Assembly: GCF_001186125.1 (NCBI RefSeq)
Contig: NW_014039895.1
Location: 3,545 to 52,089 of the forward strand
DNA length: 48,545 bases
Source: Sphaeroforma arctica JP610
Taxonomy: Eukaryota
Direction: 5' to 3'
Positions 257 through 44,290 of this stretch are shown piece after piece (within the stretch, counting starts at the first letter, position 1; the number at the start of each line of letters is the position of its first letter). Below the pieces are notes generated by a model, which ran no database searches, was not told the origin of the DNA, and saw nothing but the letters and a program-made list of their open reading frames with translations. A program made the translations under genes and the position numbers.

Positions 257-4698
<4,442 letters not shown>

Positions 4699-10072: not shown

Positions 10073-10934
10073 CTTGGCAGTGTAAAGTGGGCAGACGGAT
10101 GCAGTTGATGGGCGTGGGTTTTACGACAACACACAAACAGATCGATCTATCTATAATCTAATTCGTACTTGATCTCTGGGCAGAGATGTTAGTATTTGGC
10201 CTGGTACATAAGCCCTTAATTACTGGTGCAGTATATTCTGTACTGCTGTGTTGACGTGAAACTTGATCACAGTTTAACTGGATGGCTATTCCTTTCTGTG
10301 AAGTAAGTGCGTGAGAGGTCAGACTGTCACACTTTACATTCCCATCAAACTACGAGATGGAAAGTAGCACTGGAGTGCAGATAGCTGATTTACAGCAAAG
10401 CATAAAGCATGGCATACTAAGGTATATATCGTCAATGGACTTCTCGACAGAGGAGAGAGGCTATGGACACCCCAATTCTAAGACATGCAGCATAGCAATA
10501 GGCTTCACATGATGCATATTGTGGCAAGCGGCCACATGAGATATTCGATACAGAGCAGTTCACTTTGCCGACGAAATTTTAACTTTCAGCCTCCAGGTTC
10601 CTTCCAAGTTCCTTCACGTTCATTTTTTTTAACGAACATATAAATAAATAGAGTATTCTCAACAGCATAGTCTGTACTGTCATACGCGTAAACAGCTAGC
10701 TATCACTGTGTGTCTGGTCTGTTGCACTGTTACACCTACGACGTATACTCATATGATAGTATCTTGTATATAGAGCGAACGCACATAGTGCGTGCTCACC
10801 ATTTAGCATTGGGCATTAGAATTTATATATATAAATATATTGAATTTAGAAACTCGGCTATTTAAGACTTGGACTATAATAAAGGTTCAATACATACCAT
10901 ACTGCCATATAGAATAAAGTAAGAGAAGTAAAGT
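10073..10934. promoter_or_regulatory. Probable shared promoter region between the divergent NOA1-like and CDC40 genes
   Basis: 862 bp between head-to-head start codons, with AT-rich TATA-like tracts near 10640 and 10825. Positional inference only. Confidence 0.4.
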
Positions 10935-11791
10935 ATGAATGCGCTGGCCGACTATGCTGGCAGCTCGTCAGAAAGCGATGGGGAAGGTAGAGCCACCAAA
11001 CCGACTAAGACAGAGGAGAGGTCACCTCCGTCAACCCACGTGCCCACCAATCTGAGTGCATTAAAGAAGAAGATGCAGCTCAATGTAGCACCCTTAGTGC
11101 ATGCTAAAACAAATGGCCGGTCCATAGTTCCAGTTGATCCGCATGCCAAGAATTTAGGATACAATCCCAGAATCGATGAAATGTACGGGCCTATTGAAGG
11201 GCCTACAAATCCCAACAAGACCTCACAGGAGGCAGCAGAAAGGAATATAATCAGTGGGTATGTGGAAGATACCGGTATAAGTGACTTCGCATTCGAGGAA
11301 CAACGTAGAACGTTCCATGCGTATGGGTATGCATCGAATCCCTCGGCTGGTGCGAATGTGGTGGGCGATAGGAAACGCGCGGAGAAGCAACAGAATGCAA
11401 CGGCGTTTGAAGGTAGGTGAACATGTTTTGACACTCCTCTCGCATCCATAGATGTCACCGTGTGTGTACCTAGACTTGAATTGTAATATTCGTGTGATTA
11501 GTAGGTCAAGAAATGTTTAAGTACGGCTTCAAACACTCCACACAGCCATAAACGTGTCAGTCATTCCATTACGTTCTATTGTGATGGAGCCGTGTGTTGA
11601 AGAAATCGTGATCTCTTTTGCGCGACATTGCTATGAGAGACATATTTCAGTCATAATTTTATGCATATATGTGTATACACACATAAAGACATGAAATTGT
11701 ATGTATATATATATATATATATTCGTATATATATATATATATATATATTATTTATTTATTTATTTCTTATTTACTTATCTACTTAATATAT

Positions 11792-11849
<58 letters not shown>

Positions 11850-14800
11850 ATATATATATATATATATATATATTATTATATTATTACTTGTAGTATATAG
11901 TTTACTTTATATATATATAATTATATTTATATGGATAGGGATATGGATATGGACATTTATATGGATATGGAATAGATTTCGATATGGATTTGTAAATCTA
12001 TATCAATTGAATACGCCACTGATTTTTTGACACCCCATTTCAGTCTGCAAATTGTATGTGATCCATACCCACATTCGAGTGCCATTGTTGTATTCGGTCG
12101 CAATGACACACACACGTTGCTATGTGTGTCTATGTGCATGACTGTTTGTAACGTGTAGACTTCACCAGTACATGACCAGTGTGTATTTGTTCTGGGGTAT
12201 TCGTGCGCGTGCTGAGGTGTGTTTATGTTCTGTGTCCAGCGGATACTGCATGTACACATCTCTCCTCGATATCGACGTACCCCGTGCGTGTATGTATGTT
12301 GTTCGATGTCATCCACATATTAATATTTATGTGCTCGTGTGTGTATGCATGTCGTTCGATGTTTATTTTTATGTGCATGCCATCCACATATTATTGTTTA
12401 CATACTCGTGTGTGTATGTATGTTGTTCGCATGTTTATTCATTACATGCATGCCATCAATATATTGATATCTACGTACCCCGTGTGTGTATGTATATTGT
12501 TCGTATGTTTATTCATTACATACATGCCAACCGCATATTGATATCTACGTACCTGTGTGTGTATGTATGGTGTTCGCATGTTTATTACGTATGTATTTGT
12601 GTATGTTGTTCGTGTTTATTCATTATTTGTATTCCATCCACGTATTAATATTTACGTACCCCTGTGTATTTATTTATATTGTTCGTATGTTTATTCATTA
12701 TCTGCATGTCATCCACATACTGATATTTACGTACCTGTGTGTATTTATGTTTGTTGTTCGTACGTTTAGTTCATTACATGCATACCATCCGCATAATAAG
12801 CCAAAGCACATATCTCCTCCTTTGTCCTAGGAGTTAGAAATTCTGGTCCAAAGCGGAAACGAGAGCACAGAGGCGATGCAGCGGACCTGGACAACTACCA
12901 AGGCCCTTGGGCTAAGTGGAAGGATGAGAAGACCACCGCCAAGCCCACAGACGAGCAGATGGAGATTCTAAAGTCGTACAAGGTACACACGGCCCACAAC
13001 ACGCAGATGCAGATGCAGATGCAGATATAGATACACATACACATATACATGCAGATACAGATACACATACAGATGCAGATGTAGATGTAGATGCACATAC
13101 ACACATACATACATACAGATACACATACAGATGCAGATGTAGATATAGATGCACATATACATGCAGATACACATACACATACAGATGCAGATGTAGATGC
13201 ACATACACACATACATACATATACATACATACAGATACACATACAGATGCAGATGCAGATGAGATCAGTATATGTATCGCTGAGTGGTCTATGTGTACTG
13301 ATGTCTTATGGTGGCTCGGCTGGGTTGCGTATTTGTACGTGGTTCCTGCATGCGGGGCACATGGGCGGTGGTGGAGAGTGTGCGATGGGCTTGTCATGGT
13401 GGGTCAACCCGTGGCTGCGTTCAACTTGTCGGTATCAGACCTCCGAGTAGGGTCAACTCCTCTTGTGTGCTTGTGTGTGGTGGTAAAAGGGTCTGAAGGA
13501 TGAGTGATTTAAACCAAAGCAGCCAGTGTCTTGGGGTTTGGAATGGATGTGTTCCCAGGGACTACGAGACACTTAACGCGTCCGCTGTATATATTTGGGC
13601 GGTAACAGGTGAAGAACATTGCGGAAAGCGGTGGAAAGGCCAAGAAGGATGAGGAAGTATCTGTTCTCAACATTGACGACGCTCAAGGTATGTGGTCTTG
13701 TTTGCATGGGTAATTGGGCTCACTCGCATCTGTCCTAGTATTGTTATGGCTCGAACCTGACTGTGTAAAATGTATCGAATCGTGGTCGTCATTGGCAACC
13801 CATTTTTTTGGTGCGGAAACGGCTCGATTGAATGGAGGAGGATCGTTTGGTGACCATTGCATAGTGTGTGCATGCAGAATGAGTTTGAATGGGAGAGGAT
13901 CGTTTTGGTGGCCATTGCGTAGTGTGTGCATGCAGAATGAGTTGCCACCGTGTGCATCGTTGGGATGGTTATATCCCTCCCTACCTTGTGTGTGTCCTAT
14001 CCAACATGTCTGCACTGTTTCAGGGTCATTTAGGGCAAGAGTGCCCACTGCACTTTAAATACCTATACATCTAGCCGTACCGTTCTATTTGTATAAATAT
14101 GTGTATGTTAGTATATATATATATATATATAATGATGATTGCAACATCAAGTATATCTGTGTGTCTAGATCCGAGACTTAGAAATCGCTAACTATTTATG
14201 GTAGAACCGTTATTTTAGTCAAGGATACCTTTTTGCTCAGACTGTCCCCTGAAATGCATCAAGCTCAATCATACATGTGTACTCAATAGCCGCGCACGAT
14301 ATATATCTTTCAACCCATGCAAGATTATTGCTCACCTTGATACGAATACATGCAAGGCAGTAGGGAATTATTCAATCATTTCATCTAAGTGACATAAACA
14401 AGTAGAAGATAATCTGCCTAGGTATTCGATGTACACATGGCTAGGCTGTGAGTAGTCCTCCTCGCGGTGCGCATGGGTCACATTTCTACCACCGCCGCCA
14501 CCACCACAATATCTATCAATTCGAGTGTATCTCATATATCCCAACTTAACGTGTATCTCATATATCCCAACTTAACGTGTATCTCATATATCCCAACTTA
14601 ACGCGTATCTCATATCTCCTTACTTAACGTGAATCTCATATCCTAACTTATCGTGTATCTCATATATCCCAACTTAGCGTGTATCTCATATATCCCAACT
14701 TAACGTGTATCTCATATGTCCCAACTTAACGTGTATCTCATATATCCCCTTAATGTGTATCTCATATATCCCAACTTAACGTGTATCTCATACCTACTAA

Positions 14801-17800
14801 CAACGTTCATCTCATATATCCCAACTTAACGTGTATCTCATATGTCCCAACTTAACGTGTATCTCATATATCCCAACTTAATGTGTATCTTATATTTCCC
14901 AACTTAACGTGTATCTCATATATCCCAACTTAACGTGTATCTCATGTATCCCAACTTAACGTGTATCTCATATATCCCAACTTAACGTGTATCTCATATA
15001 TCCCAACTTAACGTGTATCTCATATACCAATTTAACGTGTATCTCATATATCCCAACTTATCGTGTATCTCATATCTACTAACAACATTCATCTCATATA
15101 TCCCAACTTAGCGTGTATCTCATATATCCCAACTTATCGTGTATCTCATATATCCCAACTTAAGTATCTCATATATCCCAACTTAACGTGTGTTTCATAT
15201 ATCCCAACTTAACGTGTATCTCATATATCCCAACTTAACGTGTGTCCCATATATCCCAACTTAACGTGTATCTCATATATCCCAACTTTACGTGTATCTC
15301 ATTTATCCCAACTCAACGTGTATCTCATATATCTCAACTTAATGTGTATCTCATATATCCCAATTTAACGTGTATCTCACATCTCCCAACTTAACGTGTA
15401 TCTCGTATATCCCAACTTAACGTGTATCTCATATATCCCAACTTAACGTGTATCCCATATATCCCAACTTAACGTGTATCTCATATATCCCAACTTATCG
15501 TGTATCTCATATATCCCAACTTATCGTGTATCTCATATATCCCAACTGAGCATTTCCTCACTACCTTCTGCAGACTACCAAGGACGCACCTTCATGGACA
15601 TACCCCGCACCGTACCCTCGGGCGTCAAGCTCGACTCGGATGACGGTCCCGAGAAGTGCTATGTACCTACTAAGAACCTGGCTACATGGCAGGCTCACGA
15701 CAAGGGGGTCAGCGCCATCCGTCTGTTTCCCAGGTCTGGCCATCTCATCCTTACGGCTGGTATGGACTGCAGGGTCAAGCTGTGGGAGTACTACGGGAAA
15801 CGGCGGTTGATCCGCACCTATGTGGGCCATACGATGGCCGTCAGGGATATCGACTTCAACAATGACGGGACCAGGTTCCTGACGGCGAGCTACGACCGTA
15901 TGGTGAAGATGTGGGATACGTTCACGGGTATGTATATGTAAGGCGGTTGTGTACTGTGGGGTGTGGGTTGGGGATTGTATTGCTTTTGTGTATCGCGGGA
16001 TACTGTGACCATCGATAGGGATCGCAAATGATCCTTACTTTTTATGAAGTCAGCTGCAGATCGATCGATCTGTAGTCGAAGTGGTTTGTCAGTAGGTTAA
16101 CGAGTGGTAAGGTATGCACTACGCCAAGGTATGCTGTGCGCGCCTTGGGTGTAGTCTGTTGATACGCTACCACAGGTTGGGTCCTTATAAGTCACACCCC
16201 GATAGAATTGCGCCCCTATACACGAAGCCTGTTGTCTCGCTGTAAGTGGCATGTGCACCCTTTCATTAGTTGGCACGTGCAGCTTGCAGGTACTCCCGGC
16301 TATGTTTGGGAGCGCCTTGGTGCTATGCCTAGACATCAACATTGGTGTGAGGCAGAACGTTTGTTCTATTTAATCTTGAATGGCAATGTTCATATACCCG
16401 ATTTATTAAACGTATCCTTTCAATCCAATTACCGTGTACGTATGTGTAGGAGAGTGCCTAGGTCGATACACCAACGGAAAGATACCCTACTGTGTCAAGT
16501 TTAATCCCGATCCCGCGAAGCAACACATGATTGTCGCCGGTACGTCCGACAAGAAAATCGTACAGTGGGACACCACCACCGGTGAGGTCGTGCAGGAATA
16601 CGACAGACACTTGGGAGCCGTGAACACCATCACCTTCATTGATGGAGGCAACAGGTACGTGTATATCTGTACACAGATATATATATATATATATATATAT
16701 GTCTAATTCATAGCACTATGCAGGCTTCACATAGCATCATGGAGGTAACAGGCACGTATATATAGGTATATTTTATTGCTAGATCCTGGTGAACAAAACA
16801 GAGAAAACTAAGTATCATATGCGCGGTTAAGGTCTATGCATGTGCCCGTGACTATCGCTGCAACGTCAATTGCGTATTGTGTGAATTGCTGTATGCCGGC
16901 AATATCTGACAAGTCTTGTGACCAAGTATGTATATTGTGTCATACAGAAGTCTCATCTGATTTGGTGTGTGAGATTCACTGGCAATGCCAAGGTACGAAC
17001 AGTCCCGCGCGGGTAGGTCATATACACACAAGAGTTCATCAATAATGTATACACACAGGAACCCATCATAGATGCACTTGCATTGACCACGAAGAATAAG
17101 ACTTTTTTTTGTGAATACTGCCAATATATCCTTTGCATACAGATTGCTCCCTTTCAGGTGAGATTTTTTCTCATGTAATAGGCTCTTTCGATTCTTGTCT
17201 GTGAGATCGGTTCTATCATAATATCTTCTGATACACTACACTTCACTCCTCGCCGTCACGAGCAGATCTGTACTTATCATGACAACCCCATCAAGCAAGT
17301 GACCTGTGCAGCTTAAATCATCATTACCACACACATACCTCGCCTTATGAACAGAATGGTCTCCACCTCCGACGACAAGTCCATCAAACTGTGGGAGTGG
17401 GAGATCCCGGTGGACTACAAACACATCGCCGAGCCTGGCATGCACTCCGTACCCGCCGTTGCCATGCACCCCAAGGGTCGCTGGATGGCCTTCCAATCTC
17501 TGGACAACACCATACTTATCTACGGAGTGGGTGAGCGGTTCAGGATCAATAGCAAGAAGCAGTTCAAGGGTCACCTGATTGCCGGGTATGCGGTCCAGCC
17601 CGGGTTCTCGTCCGACGGGCGCTACGTCATCTCGGGTGATTCGGAGGGCAAACTCATCATCTGGGACTGGAAGTCTACCAAGATCTACAAGTACGCTTGG
17701 GTTACTATCCTGTAGTGTTATATTTTCTTTCGTTGTGCTCGGTACTTGTTGTACCATGGGCCGTCCATAGGTCGTCTTTGTCCTGTTCTTATCCTTTTGT

Positions 17801-28225: not shown

Positions 28226-29058
28226 ATACCAAGACGTTTATGTTAATAAGACAATAAGTTAATCCGTTTAAATGCAAAATGTTAAATAAGTTTAGCTTCA
28301 ACCCTTCGTGATGAGCAAAAGATTAGGGGATTTTAGACTGAGACTATTGTTTATATGCTCCGCTCTAATCACTCACTACTTCGGTCTAGATTTATTTCTA
28401 TTTTAGTTACTAAGACCAGATATCATTTCATTGGACGCTTAGTTTACATTTCACGCCTCGAAACAATCATCTAATCAACTAACCAATAAAAAATACTTAA
28501 GAAAATAAAGGAAAATCAAAACACCAAGCTGGTGCAGTATACATCTGCACCTAGACCCCGTCACTTGGTACCTAGCTTCCCATCCCATTTAAGGCATAAA
28601 CGGGCACATCTAGTTGGCTGGCTAGGGGGAATCAAACCCATGTTGTCCTAAATTCTAATAACTCTGATCCTGTCCTTTTCTCAGTGGATTATCTTGCTCT
28701 GAGAACATTATCGAATTGTACCAACAACCATTTCATGCCTGAGACCCTCTCTCATGGTACTCCCATAAATTAGAGATTCCCAAAGTGTCATTATCAGGTG
28801 TCAGATTGGTGTCGTTCCTATATTATGTACAATTCTAACTTCAGTGGAAAACCCAATCTATATTTCGAAAGCCACTTAATTATCCACAGTAGAGTCTCAT
28901 ACTCTAAGTTCTTGTTCATGTCCAATTCGTTAAACGTATTTCAGTATTATAAGAATATCCGTTGATATGTTTATACGTTTATAATATACGTTAGCTGTGC
29001 AACTACTATTAGGAACCCGCTATTTTTACACAGCATAAACGTTATATACCAAATCATG
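28226..29058. mobile_element. ~0.83 kb AT-rich non-coding insertion (solo LTR or MITE) splitting the minus-strand integrase
   Basis: Flanked by ATAAG at 28221-28225 and 29059-29063; removing it restores the frame IDSSTY|SQPRGDQLLQL. Alternative boundary: 9-bp inverted repeat ACGTTTATG (28234) / CATAAACGT (29034-29042). Confidence 0.6.
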
Positions 29059-29316
29059 ATAAGTAGAGGAGTCAATCAATGGGGCCGTCCACTCTTCCAG
29101 GGTACGGATGGCCATCTCTGCTCGTCCATTACCGCCGTGATGTGCCACCGACGTTAAATACACAAACATCCCATGCTCTAACGCAAAGTCCTTGAACAAC
29201 TTGCTGTCAAATATACTGTCCATGTCCGCAACAATATGCTGTGGAAGTCCACAGGGAAACACTTGTTCTAACATAAACTTGATGACACCTCTCGTAGTTT
29301 TCTTAGCTTGCGTAAA
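29059..29316 (-). pseudogene. Integrase catalytic core fragment (second D and the E) of the minus-strand gypsy element
   Basis: KKTTRGVIKFMLEQVFPCGLPQHIVADMDSIFDSKLF...HHGGNGRAEMAIRTL. Confidence 0.85.
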
Positions 29317-30170
29317 TGTAATAGCTGGGCCTCCATATTAAGCTCTATGTTATACACGTACTCTTAAGCAGTACGTAAACTACAAACGTATTCTTAATAG
29401 TACGAGGAACTTAAGTTTCCTAAATGGTTTTTAACGGTTTTATTAATTAATACCTTTTCCATTTCACATATCAGATATTTGGACAAGGCCATTAAAAGGC
29501 CCCAGTAAAATACCAAACATAAGATTTGGTCTAGTTCTATTAATAGAACTATATTTACTTTCCAAATCTATTTATATCTGAATACTTCGGTAGCGAGATG
29601 GCTCAACCGAACATAGGTTTCTAAGGACTATTAGCATTGCTTAGTTTATCCTCCTTTCAGCCAACCAGATGTGCCAGTCTGATGAAGGCTAAGTCGATAA
29701 TTCTTGATAAGTGGTAAGTTATTGGTTAATGCAATAACTATGGACATCAGGAGTATTTTTCTTTTTCTATTCCTTTTTTCTTCTAAAGATAGGATTTTAT
29801 GAGTATCTTGGATTGCCCCAACGAAACATACCATAGTTTCTATTAGAGTGACAACGAAACACTCAATAAAATCCCTTCGGCGAAAACAGTACTGAGAGGA
29901 TTATATATAGGCAATGTCTCAGCCTCACAATCCCTCAAAGTATTGCTGTTTTCACGAGGCATACCTAACTTTACTAAACGACTCATTTCGTTTATTTATT
30001 TCAAATTTAACTATACTTAGACTTAACCGAAGAGTTTAATTACTTTAAGGCGTTAATATCGCCTTGATAGACCGAAACTTACATAAAAACGCAAACCACT
30101 AACAACTTCGACATTTCGTTTACAGCGACTTGCAATTACGCCCGAAAAGCGTAAAGGCCTGAGCGCTACA
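29317..30170 (+). repeat. 5' LTR (TGTA...TACA)
   Basis: Starts TGTAATAGC at 29317 and matches 34845-35645 up to 30129. The end at ...GCGCTACA 30170 is inferred from the terminal inverted repeat and a following TGG-starting PBS-like tract (TGGCAGTTGAGCCAG, 30175-30189). Confidence 0.85.
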
Positions 30171-30173
30171 CCT

Positions 30174-31515
30174 GTGGCAGTTGAGCCAGATGTACTCAGC
30201 GCATCTATACTTTACGAGGTACTACCACCAGAACTCCAGGCTAATTATTCGCCTGTTCTAACGCCCGGCCATGAGTTGCCCGTCCTTGAAGGTATTATAG
30301 ACCCAGAGGCAGGTAAAAATACTCCGCCACCTTTACCCAACTGGGATGACAATCGTCGAGAACCAGGTAAGACTGGGTATGTCATCCAGACGCATGAATC
30401 ACCCAAGATTATAATACCAATTACTATCCAAGAAACAGCGCACCGAAAGGCCTCGACCATGGACTTTACAAGGGGTAATAAACACTCCCGTAAACGTGTT
30501 AACGATGTCGAATTTAATCGCTTCGATTGCACAGCATTACACCAGCCCGCAGAGGATATCCACTCCGACGAGGTGACCGAACTTTTATAAATCGGTCGAC
30601 GATTACACCATTAAGATGGAAATCGCCCATGGCGAGCACCGTGCTGATGACGTATCATATTTTGCTAATATGATCGCGATCAAGCAGAAGCGCATCGATC
30701 AGCTACTTCAGGCCCAACGTGGGCAAGACCCCCGGGATAACTCGAAGTCCAAGGGACAGATTAGTTGACTTAAGTCGAACTGGGATGCCAACAGCAAGCA
30801 GGTCGAGTTTATAAACAACCATGACCTCGACACCCTAAACCGTACGTTTAATGCGTTTACGGTCATGCTGGAGACGAATGATATCGCTCCCCAGCAATGG
30901 ATTTCTGCTTTAATGCAATCGTTTGACCCTACATGAACAAGTTACTTGATCCTGCAGCGACATCAGCATGAGCTAGACACTTGTCGTGACTGTCCAGCTG
31001 TGTGTTGGTTGGTTACGTCCTTATTTAGCAAGGACATACGAAGTCCAGGGCTGAGTTCAATCTTAACTGAACCGGTTGAGAATACTCCTATTCAGAGTTA
31101 TATTCTGAAACTTGATGCTGATCTTAAACGTCCAGATATAACAAAGGACAAGGCTCAGCGATGGTACAAGTTCCTGGTTATGCATGTTTTCTGTAAGAGC
31201 ATAAGAAACAACGACCGTGAAAGTCTGTACACCGAGTTGCGACGTAAATACGCTACTGAGGCTCGAGACAAGGGACGTGAAACAAAGTTTTATCTATCCC
31301 GACTTACGTGGGAACAGCTTTATGATACTGTATCCACCCTTTTCCCCGCACACCGAGTATCCTCGAAGGGAAAGGCGGTAAATAAGAAACCGCGCGAGCT
31401 CCCTGATTAAGGATACCTCTCACGCCAGACGTCAAATGATAAACCTCATCAGACGCGTCCTAACCAGACACGTGCTCGCGACTCCACTCAATCAACGCGA
31501 CCCAATAAACATGTA
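30174..31515 (+). pseudogene. Degenerate gag region of the + strand gypsy element
   Basis: Broken ORFs 30174-30590 and 30946-31410 lie between the 5' LTR and RT. Assigned by position; no zinc knuckle recognised. Confidence 0.55.
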
Positions 31516-32541
31516 CCAATTGAACCTAACACAGGGGTATCATCAAATGCAAATTTATGAAGCCCATCGTAAGTACTTTAGTTTTACCTGGAAAGGTAAA
31601 CAATAAAGGTTTAGAGGTGCACCTTTTGGGTCGCACTCCTTACCAGCATTCTTCCAACAAGTTATGGAGGAAAAGTTTGCAGACATGCCTAACGTGCAAG
31701 TCTATATAGATGACATAGTCATTTTTTTTAAGACTAAGGGCGAACATGCCGCAATAGTCAGGCGAGTCCTTCAGAGACTCAACGAACAAAACTTCAAGAT
31801 TAACGAGAAGAAATGTCACTTCGCCATGAGCGAAATACAGCTCTTAGGCTACCGTATATCTGGGGAAGGTATTAAAATCGACCCCGGTAAGGTGGAACAC
31901 TTGTTAGATTGGCGAACACCAACTACAGGAAGAGATGTGAACAGCATGTGTGGGTTTGTAAACTTCTTTTCAGATGGAGTACCACACTTGGCTGATTATC
32001 TTAACCCTTTGAACACTTAAGATGTCATAAAGGTAAACCAGGAGACTTGTGGACTAAAGAGTGTAATGACGCATTTAAAGCGCTCAAGCACGCAGTCCAA
32101 CAAGCCCCTGTTGTACAAGGACCAGTCGCTGGCGTGCCTATTGAAATAGTAACGGACGCATCAGACTTAGCACTCGGAGGTGTACTATACCAGGTTATAG
32201 ATAATAAACCTAGGTATATACAATTGTTTAGCCGAGCAATGAATGCATCACAGTTGAATTATCCAACTGTGAAGCAAGAGCTACTAGCCATAGTAGCAGC
32301 TTTGACACACTTCCGCGAATATGTATACGGAACAGCTTTTACGCTGATGTGTGATCAGAAGTCCCTTCAATATATGAAGGAAATGAAGCCAGACTCTCAA
32401 TTACTGAGCCGATGGCATGATACAATATCAAAGTTTCATTTTGATATCAAACATCTACCAGGGATACATAACCATTTACCGGATATGTTATCACGCTTTG
32501 TACCGGACTTTAATAAATCCGTACGTGGGTTACTAGCCACT
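31516..32541 (+). pseudogene. Reverse transcriptase (5'-truncated) and RNase H
   Basis: LNLTQGYHQMQI...RKYFSFTWKGKQ*RFRGAPFG...YIDD...KKCHF...LLGYRIS...GFVNFF, then RNase H motifs. Stops near 31603 and 32018. Confidence 0.92.
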
Positions 32542-32905
32542 GATTGGAAATGTAACCCCAGGTGGTTTGAACTGGCTCAAAAGATATTTGGGCACATACA
32601 GTTGACATGTTTGCTGCACATCATAACGCACAACTTAAGAATTACAGGACTTTAAATCATCCTTTAGTATATGCCTTTTAATTAGACCTCTCCGAACATA
32701 ATGCGTGGGCTAATCCACCATGGCAGTTATTTGCCCAATTACTAAATTATGTTCATATACACAAAGCTATCATCACGTTGTGTTGCCCATTACGGAGTAA
32801 AGATCCATGGCTCAATACAAAATAAGCATGATACAATGCGAGCCAATATTTTAGATAGGGAAGTAGATACTTTCCTATATCAGGGTACCCGAGCCGCCCA
32901 GAAGA
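32542..32905 (+). pseudogene. Dam-like DNA N6-adenine methyltransferase domain (DIRS-type MT) in pol
   Basis: With one frameshift near 32593: DWKCNPRWFELAQKIFG-HTVDMFAAHHNAQLKNY...YAF*LDLSEHNAWANPPWQLFAQLL...ITLCCP...DPW. NPPW lies at 32712-32723. Confidence 0.85.
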
Positions 32906-33299
32906 CNNNNNNNNNNNNNNNNNNNNNNNNNNNNNTCAGAGATTCCACTCCCTACTAAATTGAGCGTTAAGCAATTCAAAGGCAACACAGCACTTGAAGT
33001 CTCTGCACAAGAAATACAATCTACTAGTGACACTACAGTTAAGAAGCGTCAGTCTCTAGCTAGGACTCTGCTTAATAACATAGAGTCCAAGCCCGAAGTC
33101 TTTCAACCCCTATTTTTAAAAGGGATTGATGAAAGATAATCCCGAAGCATATACACATATAATGCGACTATTAAATAAGTCAGGTGTACCAAACGCACTC
33201 GAGCGCACTCATGACACTCATGCGAAAGAAGGACAGGAGTCTGGAAACACTACTGACTCAGAGACCACGCAAGTGGGTTCTTAACACCCTACCTTTATT

Positions 33300-34616
33300 G
33301 TGGAGGAGCAGAATGATGAAAACATTCTTGCTTGGCTGACGCAAAACCATAAGCTGTGCGTAGTAGACGCAATTGAAGATGCTAAGCGAAATGGGATCGC
33401 GCACCCTAAGCTGGCAACTTTAGTTGACAGAGTATATCAGTCATGTACAGACTGTGATCTCAACCAGATTAAGCGCTATGGGTTCGCACCGCTTAAGAGT
33501 GTGACTGAAGATGTTCCATGGCGCAGGGTCATCATTGATCTGGTTGACCTGCCTACGTCCGAGCACACAGGCGACCGTTACGTATGCCACTTCTTACGGT
33601 ATAACTTGCTCTATACTTCAAAGGACAAGAGTACGCAGGCCGTGGCAGAATTATGTTGCCAAGTCTTTGCTGACCACGGGTGGCCAGGTGTAATGTGTAC
33701 TGATAACGGTAGCGAGTTCTGTGATGACGTAATGGAATCGTTAGTACTCGTATCAGGCATGTGCCATAAAAGGGATGTACCATATAAACCGCAAACACAA
33801 GGCGCGAATGAAACGCGCCATAGAAGACTTGAGTGCTTCTTACGTACTGCATTAACGGATGATGCAGATGATTTACAAACACAGATGAACGAGTGTGTTG
33901 ATCCGGTTACAGGTACAGCACCCGCTCACTATTTTCGTGGCAGATATAGTGAGTTACAAATACCTTTTAACAAGGACGAACCTAATCACCATGAGTTACC
34001 ATGGTTAGAGCCATGGTTAGAGAAGGTACAACGTGTTTATAACGTTGTATATCCTTGCTTGCGAGAAACACGCAATATTGCCTTATTAAAAAGGCAAAAT
34101 AGATGGAACGCTACCAAAAAGATAGCAGAGTATCAGGTTGGAGACAGAGTTATCATCCGTCAACGTAATTCCGATGCTACTGTACTAACATCGAAATGGA
34201 TAGGACCATACATAGTCTCTGTAGCCGACTATGAGGTTAATAACCCCGACGGTTCTAGTGCTTTAAATATAGGCACTAGTCGGATTCCGACTACCGAGAT
34301 TATACTCGCAAGAAGACATGGCTCTAATGCCCCTCTTGATCGTCCTGAATTTAAAGACATTATATGGAGAACGAATAAGGGAGGTTATACATACTATCGT
34401 ACACGCTTTATAGACGGTACAATCTCTGAGTTGACTTCAGATGCTTTCGATAATCAAGACTATTTGAAAGCCTTTCATCGAAAATGGCGTAAACGCCTGC
34501 ATAAGTCACAAGCTGAAAAGATAGCATGTTTCCATCGTCTGAAGGCACAGAAGTTAAAACTTACTCGCTTACAGCATTTATCACGAGCTTTAAGGCTCAC
34601 CCTTCATATGTGCTGA
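33300..34616 (+). CDS. DDE (rve) integrase of the + strand gypsy element, with chromodomain-like C-terminus
   Basis: Open frame of 438 aa with CTDC, IIDLVD, TDNGSEF, GANE, then YQVGDRV...KWIGPY (GPY/F module). Part of a broken pol, so not an independent gene. Confidence 0.85.
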   Translation: MEEQNDENILAWLTQNHKLCVVDAIEDAKRNGIAHPKLATLVDRVYQSCTDCDLNQIKRYGFAPLKSVTEDVPWRRVIIDLVDLPTSEHTGDRYVCHFLRYNLLYTSKDKSTQAVAELCCQVFADHGWPGVMCTDNGSEFCDDVMESLVLVSGMCHKRDVPYKPQTQGANETRHRRLECFLRTALTDDADDLQTQMNECVDPVTGTAPAHYFRGRYSELQIPFNKDEPNHHELPWLEPWLEKVQRVYNVVYPCLRETRNIALLKRQNRWNATKKIAEYQVGDRVIIRQRNSDATVLTSKWIGPYIVSVADYEVNNPDGSSALNIGTSRIPTTEIILARRHGSNAPLDRPEFKDIIWRTNKGGYTYYRTRFIDGTISELTSDAFDNQDYLKAFHRKWRKRLHKSQAEKIACFHRLKAQKLKLTRLQHLSRALRLTLHMC

Positions 34617-34844
34617 AGACACTGAAGCGTAAGAAACGTCCAGTCGACCACCACGGACCTACTAGACCTAAGCCCAAAACTCACAGGGTAACCGAGAACG
34701 CTTAACTTCTCCGCCTGAGAAACATTAACTATACGTAATGCTACTTAATGTTTTCGACCCGTTTTTACTTCTCGCTTTGTAAATCCAAAATCGGCTCGCG
34801 TGAGCAACTAGTCTCTGTTGGATTTCAAAGCTGGGCGGAGGCTG

Positions 34845-35645
34845 TGTAATAGCCGGGCCTCCACATTAGACTCTTTGTTATAAACGTACTCTTAAGCAGT
34901 ACGTAAACTACAAACGTATTCTTAATAGTACGAGGAACTTAAGTTTCCTAAATGGTTTTTAACGGTTTTATTAATTAATACCTTTTCCATTTCACATATC
35001 AGATATTTGGACAAGGCCATTAAAAGGCCCCAGTAAAATACCAAACATAAGATTTGGTCTAGTTCTATTAATAGAACTATATTTACTTTCCAAATCTATT
35101 TATATCTGAATACTTCGGTAGCGAGATGGCTCAACCGAACATAGGTTTCTAAGGACTATTAGCATTGCTTAGTTTATCCTCCTTTCAGCCAACCAGATGT
35201 GCCAGTCTGATGAAGGCTAAGTCGATAATTCTTGATAAGTGGTAAGTTATTGGTTAATGCAATAACTATGGACATCAGGAGTATTTTTCTTTTTTCTATT
35301 CCTTTTTTCTTCTAAAGATAGGATTTTATGAGTATCTTGGATTGCCCCAACGAAACATACCATAGTTTCTATTAGAGCGACAACGAAACACTAAATAAAA
35401 TCCCTTCGGCGAAAACAGTACTGAGAGGATTATATATAGGCATTGTCTCAGCCTCACAATCCCTCAAAGTATTGCTGTTTTCACGAGGCATACCTAACTT
35501 TACTAAACGACTCATTTCGTTTATTTATTTCAAATTTAACTATACTTAGACTTAACCGAAGCGCTTAATTACTTTAAGGCGTTAATATCGCCTTGATAGA
35601 CCGAAACTTACATAAAAACGCAAACCACTTTTCGTTTACAGCGAC
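34845..35645 (+). repeat. 3' LTR, 3'-truncated, preceded by a PPT-like tract (AAAGCTGGGCGGAGG)
   Basis: Direct repeat of 29317-30129 with about 11 substitutions and one 13-bp deletion (manual count). It lacks the last ~41 bp of the 5' LTR. Confidence 0.9.
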
Positions 35646-38600
35646 CAATACTGAGCATTCTCCTGCGGATGCCACAGGAAGGTCGACGAAATCCACACCC
35701 CAGTGGGCTAAATGACCGCTGTTCGCTCAGGTTGTTGCAACAAGCCTGAAGATTCTGGTGGTGGCCTCCCATACTGCTGATACTGTGCACGAACTCGAAC
35801 TATCATTCGTATTTGCGGCCACAAGTTACCCCACCCAGGTACATATTTTGTCAAGTGCTCCAAGCGTGCCTGCGCAGCATGCGCATATGTTACATGGAGG
35901 TATTGCAAGGACTTAACAACTTGTGCTCCTGTTAGCTCCACGCCTCAAAGTTTCCGTGTGGGGCAAGCCAACAGGACCGGCCGGGGATCCACCTGAAGAG
36001 GAACAGCCTTTCGTCTAAGAGCCGAACCAGCATTATCCCTTGTGTCTCCCAGTTCCTCAGCGTTTATTGACGCCGCCACCACAGGTATGTCACGCTCCTG
36101 AGTACTAACCGTATCTTGCTGTCTGTCGACGGATATACTCACTGTTCTGCTCTGTTCAGTGATTGGTCCAAAACATACATTTCTTTCACTTTCATAACCA
36201 GAAATGCAGCCACCTGTCGCACCCCGGTCCTCAAAGAGTTTAGTTGCATCTGCGTCGTTGTGGTTGTTTGCCTGACATGCTTCGATTCAGCTGGCTCCAT
36301 AACCGAGTCACTGCTGAACAAAGCTTCACACTTCTTCCAGATTTCCGCACTTACTTGAAAATGTCTTGGACCCAATCTGCAGATGAGAGTAACAAATGAA
36401 GGTGGTTTTGTATCCTCTCGCCCATGCCTGTTGAATACCTCCGCTAACTATGGGGTCGTCAGCTAAAAGTTCCACCAAAATAGGGAACCACTCTGTCCAA
36501 GGCCAGTAAGGGCATACTAAAGTACACCACGCTACTTCCTTCTTGGCCTTGTTGACCACTTTGGGTAGCAACGTCCAATGATGATTAAATAACTAGTTAA
36601 CACTGGGGTCGCCCCAGTATCACACAAATAACCCTCTTTCTAGAGTAGGAACACAATAATAGGGAAGTATGGCGTTGCCTGGTAAGGCAAACCCGTCGGC
36701 CGTGTGGGGTCCCCACTGCTTATCTGCCGCTTTAAAGTATGGGGACGTAAGTTGGTACTCCTCTGTCGACGGCATGGATGCTAGTGGATAGGCAAAATGT
36801 TTTCTGAGGTCTTCACTACCCTCTCGCACCCGCAGTATGGGATCAATGGTAACACATGAGCGGGACAACACATCCGCTATAGGATTTTCTTCCACAGGTA
36901 TGTGCACTATTTACCCATTGAAGTCTCGTACTACATCGTAGTATCGTCCCATTCGTCTGCCCCCGACGTCGTCTACAAATGATTCTTTAGACCTAGAAAA
37001 TATTGCTACCAATGGCTGGTGGTCAGCATATAGCCGTATCACCTTCTCCGTACGACTGAGTATCCTCATGTCCTTGCGTATCCCGCACACCAGGGCCAAG
37101 GCCTCTTTGTCTGTGATGTGATATGCCTTCTGCGCCCCATCATACCGTGAAGAGACGAAGCTGACAGGCAGATAACTTCCATTCTAAATACTGTAAGTAT
37201 ACCACCTATGCCTACTGATTCGCAAGCGTCTGCGAACATCACTAGTTTCGTAGTAGTTCCCCAATTTTCTGAAATGCAGCTCGTTGCGGTTGATCCCATA
37301 TGAACACACTATCATCTTTTAGCAGTATCGCCACTGGTTGCAGTATCCTCGCAAAATTGGGCACATACTCTAGCCCACCAACCCACCCTATGGTACCAAG
37401 ATTTTAGTCGATCCTTTGAGGTTGGTTCATTTAGCTCTAGCAACGCATGTAAGCGTACATCCCCCATTGTAGATCCTATATAGTCCACCAGCCTCCCTAT
37501 GATTACCACCGGCGTTCTGTATTGCGCTACCACACATTTGGAAAGTCTTAGCTGCACATTATATCGTCGGCACCTCTCCATAAAAAACTTTAGCCACTTC
37601 CGATAAATCATCAATGTAGCAAACCACATCATCGAGACCCGCAAATATCTCTTCTAACACCTGCTGACACCTCCACGATGCCTCCTTCAACCCGAAGGGC
37701 ATCCCCACAAAGGGTTATCTTCCAAAAGGTGTCTTAAAAGACAAGTATTTACGCGACAGGGGTGCTATCCTCAACTGATAGAACCTTGACCCATATCCAT
37801 TGTCGTTGTATAATTTTTGTTTTTCAACTTAAGACAAATTTTCACGTTTTGTGGGTATATGATACAGTACCGCTCTTAGTTGCGTATTCACTCTTTTCAG
37901 ATTAACACAACACCGCCAATCGTCCACTTCTACAGGTGTCACCCCGGGCTTCTTATAGACCAAATGAGGAGCCGAATATCATTCGCTCTTCTGAATCTCT
38001 TCTATAATGCCTGCCTTCAACCACGCAGACACCTTCTGGAACAATGCTCCTCCCCTTACTTAATCATTGTGAAAGTAGCTCGTATATTGAGGGACAGCGT
38101 CAACATTCTCGTAAAGTATCAGGTCGGCTACATTAAGAAATTTTGGATGCATTGCATCATACGCAACCGCCTCAAACAGGGACAGTAAGGTATGTACTTT
38201 TTCTTTAGATGCCATTACTGTTTCTGCCAATTTGTGTATTCCATCGGTTACAAGATCTGAGTAGTCCAAAGCCTTGTCCCAGACCACATTTTCATGTTCA
38301 TCGTCTAGCCACTCCGATGTGCAATATTTTTTCGCTGAGTCTCGGTAAAGCATGAGATACTCCTGTCGCGCTCTTAGTCATAAGCCCTTCATACACAGGC
38401 ATCTTCTCTTCTCCAGCTCCTTCTTCAGGCATCACCGCCACTACTATATACTCCAATGCCAGTTGACGTGCGGACTCCATAAGCTCTTCCTGGGGGACTA
38501 CGGTCAGTACTTGCTTTCTCCAAACTAGATGCCAGCACAGCTCCTGCAGACTTTTGTATCCCACCAGTAAGTCACAACTCATGGGAATACATGTTACTAC

Positions 38601-39413
38601 AAAACACCTCATGGCCACAGTTTTTGTATAAACCTTCCATGATACTATCTGTACGTCCACCACCACCTCGCCTATGGGTGTAAGCTCACCAAACCCTTTT
38701 CCGGTATACACTGATATTTCTATGTTCAGGCGTTCTACTAGGTCTGTGGTTATCCGCGTAGGAGTAGCTCCTGAGTCCAAATAACTCAGACTTTTTACTC
38801 CATTTACCACAGCCTCAGCAACGCTTCCATGTCAGTGTTTGCCAGGTACCACAAACTTTGCGGCACTGGCAACCACAGCCCCAGCTACCTTAGCGTCTTC
38901 GGCTGCTGTCGAAACTGTATTGATTGCTGCTCCTGCTACTCCAGCTGCTGACGTGGCCTTCAATGCAACTGCTACCACTGCTTCTTCCTCCTTCTTCGTC
39001 TGAGCTGTCTTGATGATCTTAGTACGCTTCCTCTTTTGTTGAGGTATGTGGCCAGACATATTACCATCTGTCATGGGACAGCTGGTAGACTTACAAGGAT
39101 GTCAGCCAGTATAAATTTCTCCACCTGGGACCTGACCTTATGCTCCCACAGAGCCATTAGTACGGACAGGCACCCCTCGTCTAGCTTCTAACAGATCACT
39201 CTGTATCTTACACCCTAATGGTAGACCCCATGTCTCATAAGCTATTTCTACAATCACCATGTCCTGCTCCTTCGGATAGCAAGCCAAAACAAAATTGTGC
39301 AAATCAACTTCAATTTGTTTCATATTCTTCATTGATTGCTTACCAAAATCCTCAAGTTTTACCATTCTCAAGCATGGTAATATTATCCTGGGAATGCCGC
39401 TCTGAGACTGCAC
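35646..39413 (-). mobile_element. Older, decayed Ty3/gypsy element: gag?, protease, RT, RNase H, Dam-like MTase, integrase N-terminus (continues at 29316 and 28225)
   Basis: Protease VNGVKSLSYLDSGAT (~38810-38765). RT GMPFGLKEA...VVCYIDDL (YIDD 37607-37618). RNase H LVMFADAC...GIGGIL, LYADHQPL, HIPVEENPIADVLSR. Integrase LHVTYAH and HWGVDFVDLP...SVLVA. Many stops and frameshifts; no 5' LTR seen. Confidence 0.9.
36400..36770 (-). pseudogene. Second Dam-like MTase domain (degenerate) in the minus-strand element
   Basis: Single frame: EEYQLTSPYFKAADKQWGPHTADGFALPGNAILPYY...LFV*YWGDPSVN*LFNHHWTLLPKVVNKAKKEVAWCTLVCPYWPWTEWFPILVEL. NHHW (36575-36586) is at the NPPW position. Confidence 0.8.
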
Positions 39414-40199: not shown

Positions 40200-40579
40200 G
40201 CTTGTACTGGCCGACTTCCCTCGTGAGCTATGGCCGCTGGCTTGTTGCTCATTCTGTTCACGTTCAGTGGTGCCAGAAATTTGGCCTCTACAAACTACGT
40301 TTTATGCGTGCCTGTTGTCGGTTTCTAAAAAAAAATCAAATACTTTGGATACCTTTCTAGTGATTATGATTACGCTCTAACATGCTCGCGCTTTTACTGG
40401 CCGACTTCCCTCGTGAGCTATGGCCGCTGGCTTGTTGCTCATTTTGTTCACGTTCAGTGGTGCCAGAAATTTGGCCTCTACAAACTACATTTTATGCGTG
40501 CCTGTTGTCGGTTTCTAAAAAAAAATCAAATACTTTGGATACCTTTCTAGCGATTATGATTACGCTCTAACATGCTCGC
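40200..40579 (+). repeat. Tandem duplication, 190-bp period, two near-identical copies
   Basis: TACTGGCCGACTTCCC...CATGCTCGC starts at 40205 and 40395. Confidence 0.93.
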
Positions 40580-43853: not shown

Positions 43854-44290
43854 AATATTTCACTGGCTCGCCGAGTAGTGGGCCGATGACTGTTTGATAA
43901 ATTGCAAAGTCAATGAATTGTTATTGAGCTAAACTGGCTGCCGTCTTATAGTTGAATTACTTTTCGACTACAAGTCGAAGTCCAATTACTTTGCTACTTT
44001 GTTTTAATAATGCTAACAAAAGTCACATAACGCATTGCATCTCTCAGACCAGACACAGATAGGATGTTGGGAATATTTCAGTGGCTCGCCGAGTGGTGGG
44101 CCGATGACTGTTTGATAAATTGCAAAGTCAATGAATTGGTATTGAGCTAAACGGGCTGCCATCTTATAGTCGAATTACTTTTCGACTACAAGTCGAAGTC
44201 CAATTACTTTTGCTACTTTGTCTTAATAATGTTAACAAAAGTCACAACGCATTGCATCTCTCAGACCAGACACAGATAGGACGTTGGGAA
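43854..44290 (+). repeat. Tandem duplication, ~218-bp period, two similar copies
   Basis: AATATTTCASTGGCTCGCCGAG...GTTGGGAA starts at 43854 and 44072. Confidence 0.92.

What the first reader, a model, noticed from the sequence alone, without database searches (positions are those of the whole stretch)
29317..35645. Ty3/gypsy LTR retrotransposon carrying a Dam-like adenine methyltransferase between RNase H and a DDE integrase
Seen: directly after the RNase H end motif (NHLPDMLSR), pol continues DWKCNPRWF...FG-HTVDMFAAHHNAQL...AF...AWANPPW...TLCCP...W (32542-32905; the ORF track misses it because of a frameshift), followed by an rve integrase, all between direct LTRs. Established: NPPW is the catalytic motif IV of amino-(N6A/N4C) methyltransferases, and this post-RNase H MT domain is characteristic of DIRS-type elements, which use a tyrosine recombinase rather than a DDE integrase. 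Inference: this is a gypsy lineage with RT-RH-MT-IN architecture that may methylate its own cDNA or insertion site, for example to mimic an active-chromatin mark or evade silencing. I cannot confirm from here whether this architecture has been reported.
Basis: partly seen in the sequence, partly recalled or inferred. Interest (0 to 1): 0.9.

Follow-up and report, generated by a model that had tools for sequence, protein, structure and literature searches.

The report
Decayed gypsy retrotransposon with adenine methyltransferase
This is a broken copy of a gypsy-type jumping gene that carries an adenine-methyltransferase-like domain between its RNase H and its integrase, a design that a 2026 preprint has already described; intact copies likely use the domain to methylate their own replication intermediates, but that activity is untested.

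Summary
Between two 767/768-bp LTRs (29317-30083, 34845-35612, 4-bp target duplication) lie RT, RNase H, a Dam-family methyltransferase (MT) domain with DMFA and NPPW motifs, and a DD35E integrase. This copy is decayed: no protease, truncated RT, stops, frameshifts. Two intact relatives encode PR-RT-RH-MT-IN in one frame, so the N gap does not create the architecture. The MT is conserved like RT (67% versus 22% in the next linker). Its model (pLDDT 93) matches the RNA-cap methyltransferase PCIF1 best.

It is not new. A May 2026 bioRxiv preprint defines these 'DAM-LTRs', including an ichthyosporean lineage; a host gene here matches an ichthyosporean best. This scan has noted the kind 23 times in at least 3 other genomes. 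The preprint's E. coli assay was negative, so catalysis is unproven.

Small additions: a probable degenerate chromodomain ends the integrase, although the preprint says that lineage lacks one. The element sits inside an older, unrelated MT-bearing gypsy element. The 5' LTR looks overwritten by the 3' LTR plus flank, so LTR identity does not date the insertion. A spliced RNA-like contig runs out of the 3' LTR.

The parts
29313..29316 (+). Left copy of 4-bp target-site duplication (TAAA)
29317..30083 (+). 5' LTR, 767 bp, TG...CA; 11 mismatches and 1 gap to the 3' LTR, 6 of the 11 in the first 45 bp
30084..30130 (+). About 46-bp duplicate of the 3' flank (outer element's integrase DNA) in place of a primer-binding site; suggests the 5' LTR was overwritten from the 3' LTR plus flank
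   Evidence: inference
30131..31516 (+). Presumed gag region, broken ORFs, no Pfam family at cut-off; a deletion near 31510 removes protease and N-terminal RT
31517..32014 (+). Reverse transcriptase, 5'-truncated, one in-frame stop, YIDD motif
32005..32496 (+). RT connection and gypsy-type RNase H
32539..32906 (+). Dam-family (PF05869) / DIRS-type / PCIF1-like amino-methyltransferase domain, motifs DMFA and NPPW; four pieces and one in-frame stop in this copy; last strand falls in the N gap
32907..32935 (.). 29-N assembly gap
32936..33314 (+). Fast-evolving MT-integrase linker; not alignable to P0002 or P0003 above shuffles, but covered by family contigs
33315..33944 (+). Integrase zinc-finger remnant and DD35E core (D 33537, D 33702, E 33810), small deletions
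34347..34500 (+). Probable degenerate chromodomain at the integrase C-terminus, aromatic cage largely lost
   Evidence: the fold model is too weak to confirm
34821..34844 (+). Imperfect purine-rich tract before the 3' LTR
34845..35612 (+). 3' LTR, 768 bp
35613..35616 (+). Right copy of 4-bp target-site duplication
35613..38831 (-). Outer, older, single-copy gypsy element, right part: protease 38831-38298, RT 37927-37604, RNase H 37165-36860, MT-like domain 36763-36434 without an intact NPP motif, start of integrase
29026..29316 (-). Outer element, rest of the integrase core, split by the inner insertion

Best explanation
This is a decayed copy of a high-copy Ty3/gypsy 'DAM-LTR' retrotransposon family whose intact relatives make one PR-RT-RH-MT-IN polyprotein, and whose methyltransferase likely adds N6-methyladenine to the element's own reverse-transcription intermediates (RNA/DNA hybrid or single-stranded cDNA) so that new insertions would start out with the host's active-gene mark. 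Shown here: architecture, single-frame relatives, conservation of the MT, amino-MTase fold, gypsy-type RT, decay of this copy. Inferred: the MT travels with RT-RH in the particle because it is in the same polyprotein; it prefers hybrid or single-stranded substrates, by analogy with its closest solved structure PCIF1; host AMT1 would then maintain 6mA (the preprint's model); the chromodomain-like tail would steer integration. Identity as a DAM-LTR about 0.95; this mechanism about 0.5.
For: P0002 (1400 aa) and P0003 (1376 aa) are single proteins with RT, RH, Dam (E 7.6e-5, 7.4e-6) and rve in that order. Of 28 chosen MT homologues scanned with Pfam, 21 hit Dam and 10 have Dam followed by an integrase domain. 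P0002 versus P0003 identity: RT 63.5%, RH 72.5%, MT 67.4%, MT-IN linker 22.4%, IN core 54.7%. NPP[WFY] in 125 of 150 MT domains and in 17 of 20 that I labelled LTR-type. AlphaFold model pLDDT 93.4; Foldseek top hits human and zebrafish CAPAM/PCIF1 (E 9.7e-5, TM 0.66-0.69); VIA-align Z 10.4, rmsd 3.0 over 136 residues, against 7.8 for E. coli Dam and T4 Dam. [quoted passage not shown] RT tree: window RT groups with P0002/P0003 (SH-aLRT 99) on the gypsy side, away from 22 DIRS-like rows (100); the MT tree recovers the same 12 rows within one clade (98/96). The preprint reports more 6mA and more expression on DAM-LTRs than on other LTRs in two ichthyosporeans.
Against: No catalytic activity is shown for any member; the preprint's heterologous assay gave no 6mA. 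Intact P0002 has CPPW instead of NPPW yet is equally conserved. Iyer et al. judged DIRS1 MT copies likely inactive (PMC4738411, passage). The closest solved structure is an RNA enzyme, so DNA is not the default substrate. 6mA enrichment could follow from transcription and host AMT1 alone. No ApT or GATC bias distinguishes the element from host genes. The protein-level conservation rests on one pair and is not a dN/dS.
Confidence: 0.55

Rival explanations
1. The domain is an RNA methyltransferase: it puts m6A or cap-adjacent m6Am on the element's genomic RNA or primer, affecting stability, packaging or escape from RNA surveillance.
For: PCIF1/CAPAM takes the first six Foldseek ranks and the first VIA-align rank; rRNA adenine methylases (DIMT1, KsgA, Erm) follow at Z 8.0-8.5, tied within 1 with the Dam enzymes at 7.8. 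Iyer et al. place DIRS1 MT domains in the PCIF1 clade. It would explain a negative genomic-DNA assay.
Against: The 149-aa domain lacks PCIF1's helical domain (target about 480 aa; TM by target 0.23). Pfam and PHROG hits are phage DNA methylases. A shared fold does not show substrate. It does not by itself explain the DNA 6mA enrichment in the preprint.
Confidence: 0.22
2. The domain is kept for a non-catalytic role (nucleic-acid or SAM binding, or a structural partner of RT-RH), and 6mA on the copies is laid down by host AMT1 because they are transcribed.
For: CPPW in intact P0002; 25 of 150 homologues depart from NPP[WFY]; the outer element lacks the motif (but it is decayed); negative E. coli assay; Iyer et al.'s view.
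Against: Both the SAM-binding DxFA motif and NPP[WF] are retained in most homologues across DIRS-like and LTR elements, which is hard to explain without catalysis.
Confidence: 0.18
3. The MT makes N4-methylcytosine rather than N6-methyladenine.
For: Amino-MTase motif IV is shared by both chemistries (established knowledge, recalled).
Against: All close structural and profile matches are adenine enzymes; N4C enzymes usually have SPPY (recalled).
Confidence: 0.03
4. The arrangement is an artefact: a DIRS fragment and a gypsy integrase joined at the N gap, or nested by chance.
For: 29 Ns lie between MT and integrase; no listed contig spans the gap itself (table cut); the linker after the gap does not align to the relatives above shuffles.
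Against: RT and RH upstream of the MT are gypsy-type. Both sides of the gap have the same two best relatives, which are single ORFs. Contigs of internally deleted copies join pre-gap to post-gap DNA in the same orientation (32887 to 33427 in 4 of 4 runs, 32809 to 33142 in 3 of 4). No tyrosine recombinase match in the window.
Confidence: 0.02

Closest known systems
DAM-LTR retrotransposons, ichthyosporean lineage (Fernandez-Moreno et al., bioRxiv 10.64898/2026.05.21.726589; whole main text read, supplements not seen)
   Same: Ty3/gypsy RT, DDE integrase, PF05869-type Dam domain with Asn-Pro-Pro in Pol; host probably an ichthyosporean; high copy number.
   Different: The preprint says this lineage lacks chromodomains; this family has a probable degenerate one. 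The preprint's main text does not mention PCIF1 (0 occurrences). This copy is decayed. Whether this very family is in their data set could not be checked.
DIRS-type tyrosine-recombinase retrotransposons with MT domain (example L001)
   Same: MT directly after RNase H, same domain family and motifs.
   Different: DIRS Pol ends after the MT and uses a tyrosine recombinase in another ORF; here the RT is gypsy-type, followed by a DD35E integrase, direct LTRs and a 4-bp target duplication.
PCIF1/CAPAM cap-specific adenosine N6-methyltransferase (PDB 6IRW, 6IRX)
   Same: Closest solved fold (TM 0.66-0.69, Z 10.4), NPP-aromatic motif.
   Different: 13-14% identity; no WW or helical domain; cellular single-copy RNA enzyme.
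Chromoviruses (chromodomain-bearing Ty3/gypsy)
   Same: Chromodomain-like module at the integrase C-terminus.
   Different: Pfam Chromo does not score it; cage residues are mostly replaced; the RT groups with other MT-bearing elements, not with chromovirus P0004.

Membership tests
Ty3/gypsy LTR retrotransposon | Direct LTRs with TG...CA ends and short target duplication | tested here: met
   767/768 bp, 4-bp duplication
Ty3/gypsy LTR retrotransposon | Pol order PR-RT-RH-IN with DD35E integrase | tested here: met
   RT-RH-IN in the window, PR in intact P0002; PR deleted in this copy
Ty3/gypsy LTR retrotransposon | RT groups with gypsy RTs | tested here: met
   47-row quick tree, split from DIRS-like rows at SH-aLRT 100; no named reference RTs were available
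Ty3/gypsy LTR retrotransposon | Primer-binding site and gag | tested here: inconclusive
   The PBS position holds duplicated flank DNA; gag-region ORFs have no Pfam hit at cut-off
DAM-LTR (preprint definition) | PF05869 Dam domain within an integrase-encoding LTR Pol | tested here: met
   P0003 E 7.4e-6 passes the preprint's 1e-5 threshold; P0002 7.6e-5 and the window piece 0.016 do not; 21 of 28 scanned homologues hit Dam
DAM-LTR (preprint definition) | Asn-Pro-Pro catalytic triplet | tested here: met
   NPPW in the window and P0003; CPPW in P0002
DAM-LTR (preprint definition) | 6mA enrichment on insertions and AMT1 in host | not testable with these tools
   No genome held; only assembled contigs available
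Ichthyosporean DAM-LTR lineage | Ichthyosporean host | tested here: inconclusive
   Best non-self hit of one host gene is EukProt CFRG0494T1, 44% identity, E 1.5e-83; that CFRG is the Creolimax fragrantissima prefix is recalled; one gene only
Ichthyosporean DAM-LTR lineage | No chromodomain | tested here: inconclusive
   No Pfam Chromo hit, which agrees with the preprint's method, but profile-profile probability 92%, E 6.7e-7 to 9 chromodomains, best of 105 windows
Ichthyosporean DAM-LTR lineage | Falls in the preprint's 97%-support DAM clade | not testable with these tools
   Their sequences are in supplements that are closed
DIRS retrotransposon | Tyrosine recombinase, no DDE integrase, inverted or split repeats | tested here: not met
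   No YR match (2-sequence profile), DD35E integrase and direct LTRs present
Class I amino-methyltransferase fold | Rossmann-like SAM fold with motif IV | tested here: met
   Model of P0003 residues 578-726, pLDDT 93.4; top matches are methyltransferases

The most novel reading that the evidence does not exclude
This clade of DAM-LTRs carries a PCIF1-like enzyme that methylates the element's own RNA or RNA/DNA hybrid rather than double-stranded DNA, paired with a cage-less chromodomain that Pfam misses: a retrotransposon-encoded RNA or hybrid adenine methylase with its own chromatin-targeting tail, which would explain the failed E. coli assay and correct the 'no chromodomain' description.
Probability: 0.2. 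Interest if true: 0.65.

Novelty: new member of a known kind. Interest (0 to 1): 0.24.

Why it matters
The kind is interesting because it suggests that transposons can imitate the host's active-gene mark. That idea is already in the 2026 preprint, and this copy is a dead example. What this work adds is direction for the open question of substrate: the closest solved structure is PCIF1, which prefers RNA and RNA/DNA hybrids, so those are the substrates to assay. It also names two intact natural proteins (P0003 with NPPW, P0002 with CPPW) that make a ready comparison, and shows that the integrase probably ends in a hidden chromodomain.

Tried and rejected
No whole genome is held, so no copy census or dN/dS. 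Sequence searches of PDB with the MT domain: 0 hits; with the 85-row alignment, only RNase H-driven hits. The ESM Atlas gave no answer. The metagenome scan found 1 relative among 44 candidate stretches, a DIRS element. A homologue search on the MT region among full-length proteins found only P0002 and P0003 among 101 candidates. Chromodomain by structure: model pLDDT 49, no Foldseek match at E <= 0.001, best Z 5.1; no verdict. A first-round profile of 5 Pfam-type chromodomains did not detect the tail (probability 0.6%); only the 9-sequence profile did. The post-gap linker does not align above shuffles. No ApT or GATC bias relative to host genes. No tRNA genes in the window. No RNA holder listed on record; run kinds are guesses. 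Dating by LTR identity was rejected because mismatches cluster in the first 45 bp (6 of 11, Fisher p 1e-5; cut chosen after looking) and flank DNA is duplicated. The outer element's place in both trees is unresolved (long branch). No earlier notes on this genome.
Full report
Observation. The window has two direct repeats with 789 of 800 aligned bases identical. Between them Pfam finds RT (E 5.6e-18), gypsy-type RNase H (E 3.2e-29), a weak Dam hit (PF05869, E 0.016, on a 77-aa piece read with X at its stop) and a weak rve hit (E 0.05). The integrase keeps D, D and E with 35 residues between the last two. Public contigs of the family stop matching at 35612 and run into unrelated flanks in 4 of 4 runs. 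The LTRs are therefore 29317-30083 and 34845-35612, with TG...CA ends and a 4-bp duplication.

This copy is decayed. It has no protease, and RT begins at the equivalent of residue 294 of P0002. The MT lies in four pieces with an in-frame stop. The integrase has small deletions. Family contigs differ from the window at 174 listed places over 2.2 kb, and some carry extra bases at the places where the window changes frame, so the breaks look private to this copy. Summed contig depth over the element is about a thousand times that of the flank; this is not a copy number, but it marks a large family.

Intact relatives settle the architecture. A search with the RNase H ORF among longer proteins gave 8 hits among 1337 candidates; two (P0002, P0003) are 64% identical. 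Both are single proteins with RT, RH, Dam and rve in that order, and both match the window on either side of the N gap. No listed contig spans the gap itself, but contigs of internally deleted copies join pre-gap to post-gap DNA. A search of 1.84 billion representatives with the P0003 MT gave 1689 hits at E <= 0.001; 150 were returned. I scanned 28 of these with Pfam, chosen as top hits or long proteins: 21 hit Dam, 10 have Dam followed by an integrase domain, 2 have Dam before RT. Local profiles over all 158 stored proteins give 17 with MT followed by integrase (the profiles were built partly from the same proteins).

The MT is kept by selection and folds as an amino-methyltransferase. Between P0002 and P0003 the MT is 67.4% identical, RT 63.5%, RH 72.5%, integrase core 54.7%, and the linker next to the MT 22.4% (one pair, not dN/dS). 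NPP[WFY] occurs in 125 of 150 domains; P0002 has CPPW. AlphaFold2 on an 85-row alignment gives pLDDT 93.4. Foldseek's only 3 matches at E <= 0.001 are CAPAM/PCIF1 structures. VIA-align ranks PCIF1 first (Z 10.4, rmsd 3.0, 136 residues), then RNA methylases at 8.0-8.5 and E. coli and T4 Dam at 7.8. Iyer et al. had already placed DIRS1 MT domains in the PCIF1 clade and thought them inactive (PMC4738411, passages). [quoted passage not shown]

Trees. RT tree: 47 rows, quick method; I kept only a subset of the RT-MT proteins without integrase (the first 8 and every third after). The window RT joins P0002 and P0003 (SH-aLRT 99) in a 12-row clade of MT-bearing elements (97), on the side opposite 22 DIRS-like rows including L001 (100). 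MT-bearing LTR elements are not all together: P0038 pairs with MT-less P0004 (95). MT tree: 63 rows, DIRS-like rows halved after the first 10, most fragments dropped, bootstrap not converged. The same 12 rows fall in one 18-row clade (98/96) with no DIRS-like row. This fits one capture followed by joint descent in this clade. The trees have no named references and no root, so they do not show a donor.

Host. Flanking genes are spliceosomal-intron eukaryote genes. The best non-self match of the single-exon GTPase is EukProt CFRG0494T1, 44% identical; CFRG is, from memory, the prefix of the ichthyosporean Creolimax fragrantissima. The host is thus probably an ichthyosporean; the species was not determined.

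What is known. Fernandez-Moreno et al. (bioRxiv 10.64898/2026.05.21.726589; whole main text read; supplements not seen, and they hold the sequence lists) define DAM-LTRs. They report at least four transfers from DIRS, an ichthyosporean lineage in Pirum, Abeoforma and Sphaeroforma, more 6mA and expression on these elements, and no 6mA gain in dam-deficient E. coli. They propose methylation of RNA-DNA intermediates maintained by host AMT1. 'DAM-LTR' occurs in no other paper of the library. Searches listed no other paper whose title or abstract start describes this architecture; subscription papers are not covered. 6mA marks transcribed genes in AMT1-bearing eukaryotes, ichthyosporeans included (PMC12695648, passages). 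PMC5890265 was seen as a search listing only. This scan's index holds 23 notes with these words in at least 3 other genomes; I had found the preprint before that look-up.

Additions from this locus. (1) Chromodomain-like tail. Pfam does not score it, and a profile of 5 typical chromodomains missed it. A profile of the tail from the window, P0002 and P0003 picked up the tails of P0014 and P0028 (E 0.002). It aligns to a 9-sequence chromodomain profile at probability 92%, E 6.7e-7. Among 105 sliding windows of the P0002/P0003 alignment, the tail scores best (30.4; best unrelated window 19.6). Other members of the clade (P0012, P0013, P0016, P0017, P0019) also hit that profile. The structure model is too poor to confirm it. 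If this clade is the preprint's ichthyosporean lineage, 'lacks chromodomains' may be a threshold effect. (2) The element interrupts the integrase of an older, single-copy, minus-strand gypsy element with its own MT-like domain after RNase H (iE 2.6e-21), only 25-30% identical to P0003. (3) About 46 bp after the 5' LTR duplicate the 3' flank, which itself lacks 13 of those bases, and 6 of 11 LTR mismatches lie in the first 45 bp. (4) One contig of run X18 begins at 35600 and skips two GT...AG introns on the plus strand: a spliced transcript in the element's direction. Contigs cannot show where it starts.

Mechanism. Shown: architecture, intact relatives, conservation, fold. Inferred: the MT is packaged with RT-RH and meets the RNA/DNA hybrid and single-stranded cDNA; it likely methylates adenines there, and host AMT1 would keep the mark after integration (about 0.5). 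RNA methylation (0.22) and a non-catalytic role (0.18) remain open.

Verdict. A real feature and a correct anatomical reading, but a broken member of a kind described in 2026, probably from the lineage the preprint studied. Interest 0.24.

Noticed in passing
window 38831-35613 and 29316-29026, minus strand: Older single-copy gypsy element with PR-RT-RH-MT-IN order, 25-30% identical to the inner family; its MT lacks an intact NPP motif. Two unrelated MT-bearing LTR families are nested at one site. Its own LTRs were not found as repeats.
   Followed up: partly
window 30084-30130 versus 35613-35645: The 3' flank is duplicated behind the 5' LTR, in a version 13 bp longer; probable LTR conversion or assembly error.
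   Followed up: partly
window 35600-37194, plus strand (run X18): Contig with two canonical introns (about 36085-36382 and 36898-37093), antisense to the outer element and starting at the end of the 3' LTR; possible LTR-driven or read-through transcript.
   Followed up: partly
P0044, P0063: Proteins of 2144 and 2382 aa with an exonuclease/endonuclease/phosphatase domain, then Dam, then RT-RH and an integrase zinc finger: an unusual order that may correspond to the preprint's Euglena elements.
   Followed up: no
P0002: Intact Pol whose MT has CPPW for NPPW; a natural variant for activity tests.
   Followed up: no
window 1217-4045, 7367-10120, 10932-17715, 19777-24924: Host genes: exons that look like MSH2 (by eye), a YqeH/NOA1-like GTPase, a WD40 protein that looks like CDC40/Prp17 (name recalled), and a 1715-aa class III nucleotide cyclase.
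   Followed up: partly
window 14418-15617; 40200-40579; 43854-44290: A 26-bp minisatellite inside the WD40 gene, and tandem duplications of 190 bp and about 218 bp.
   Followed up: no
L001 752-3992: Metagenome contig with a DIRS-type element: RT-RH-MT ORF (HPPP motif) overlapped by an ORF that looks like a tyrosine recombinase.
   Followed up: partly
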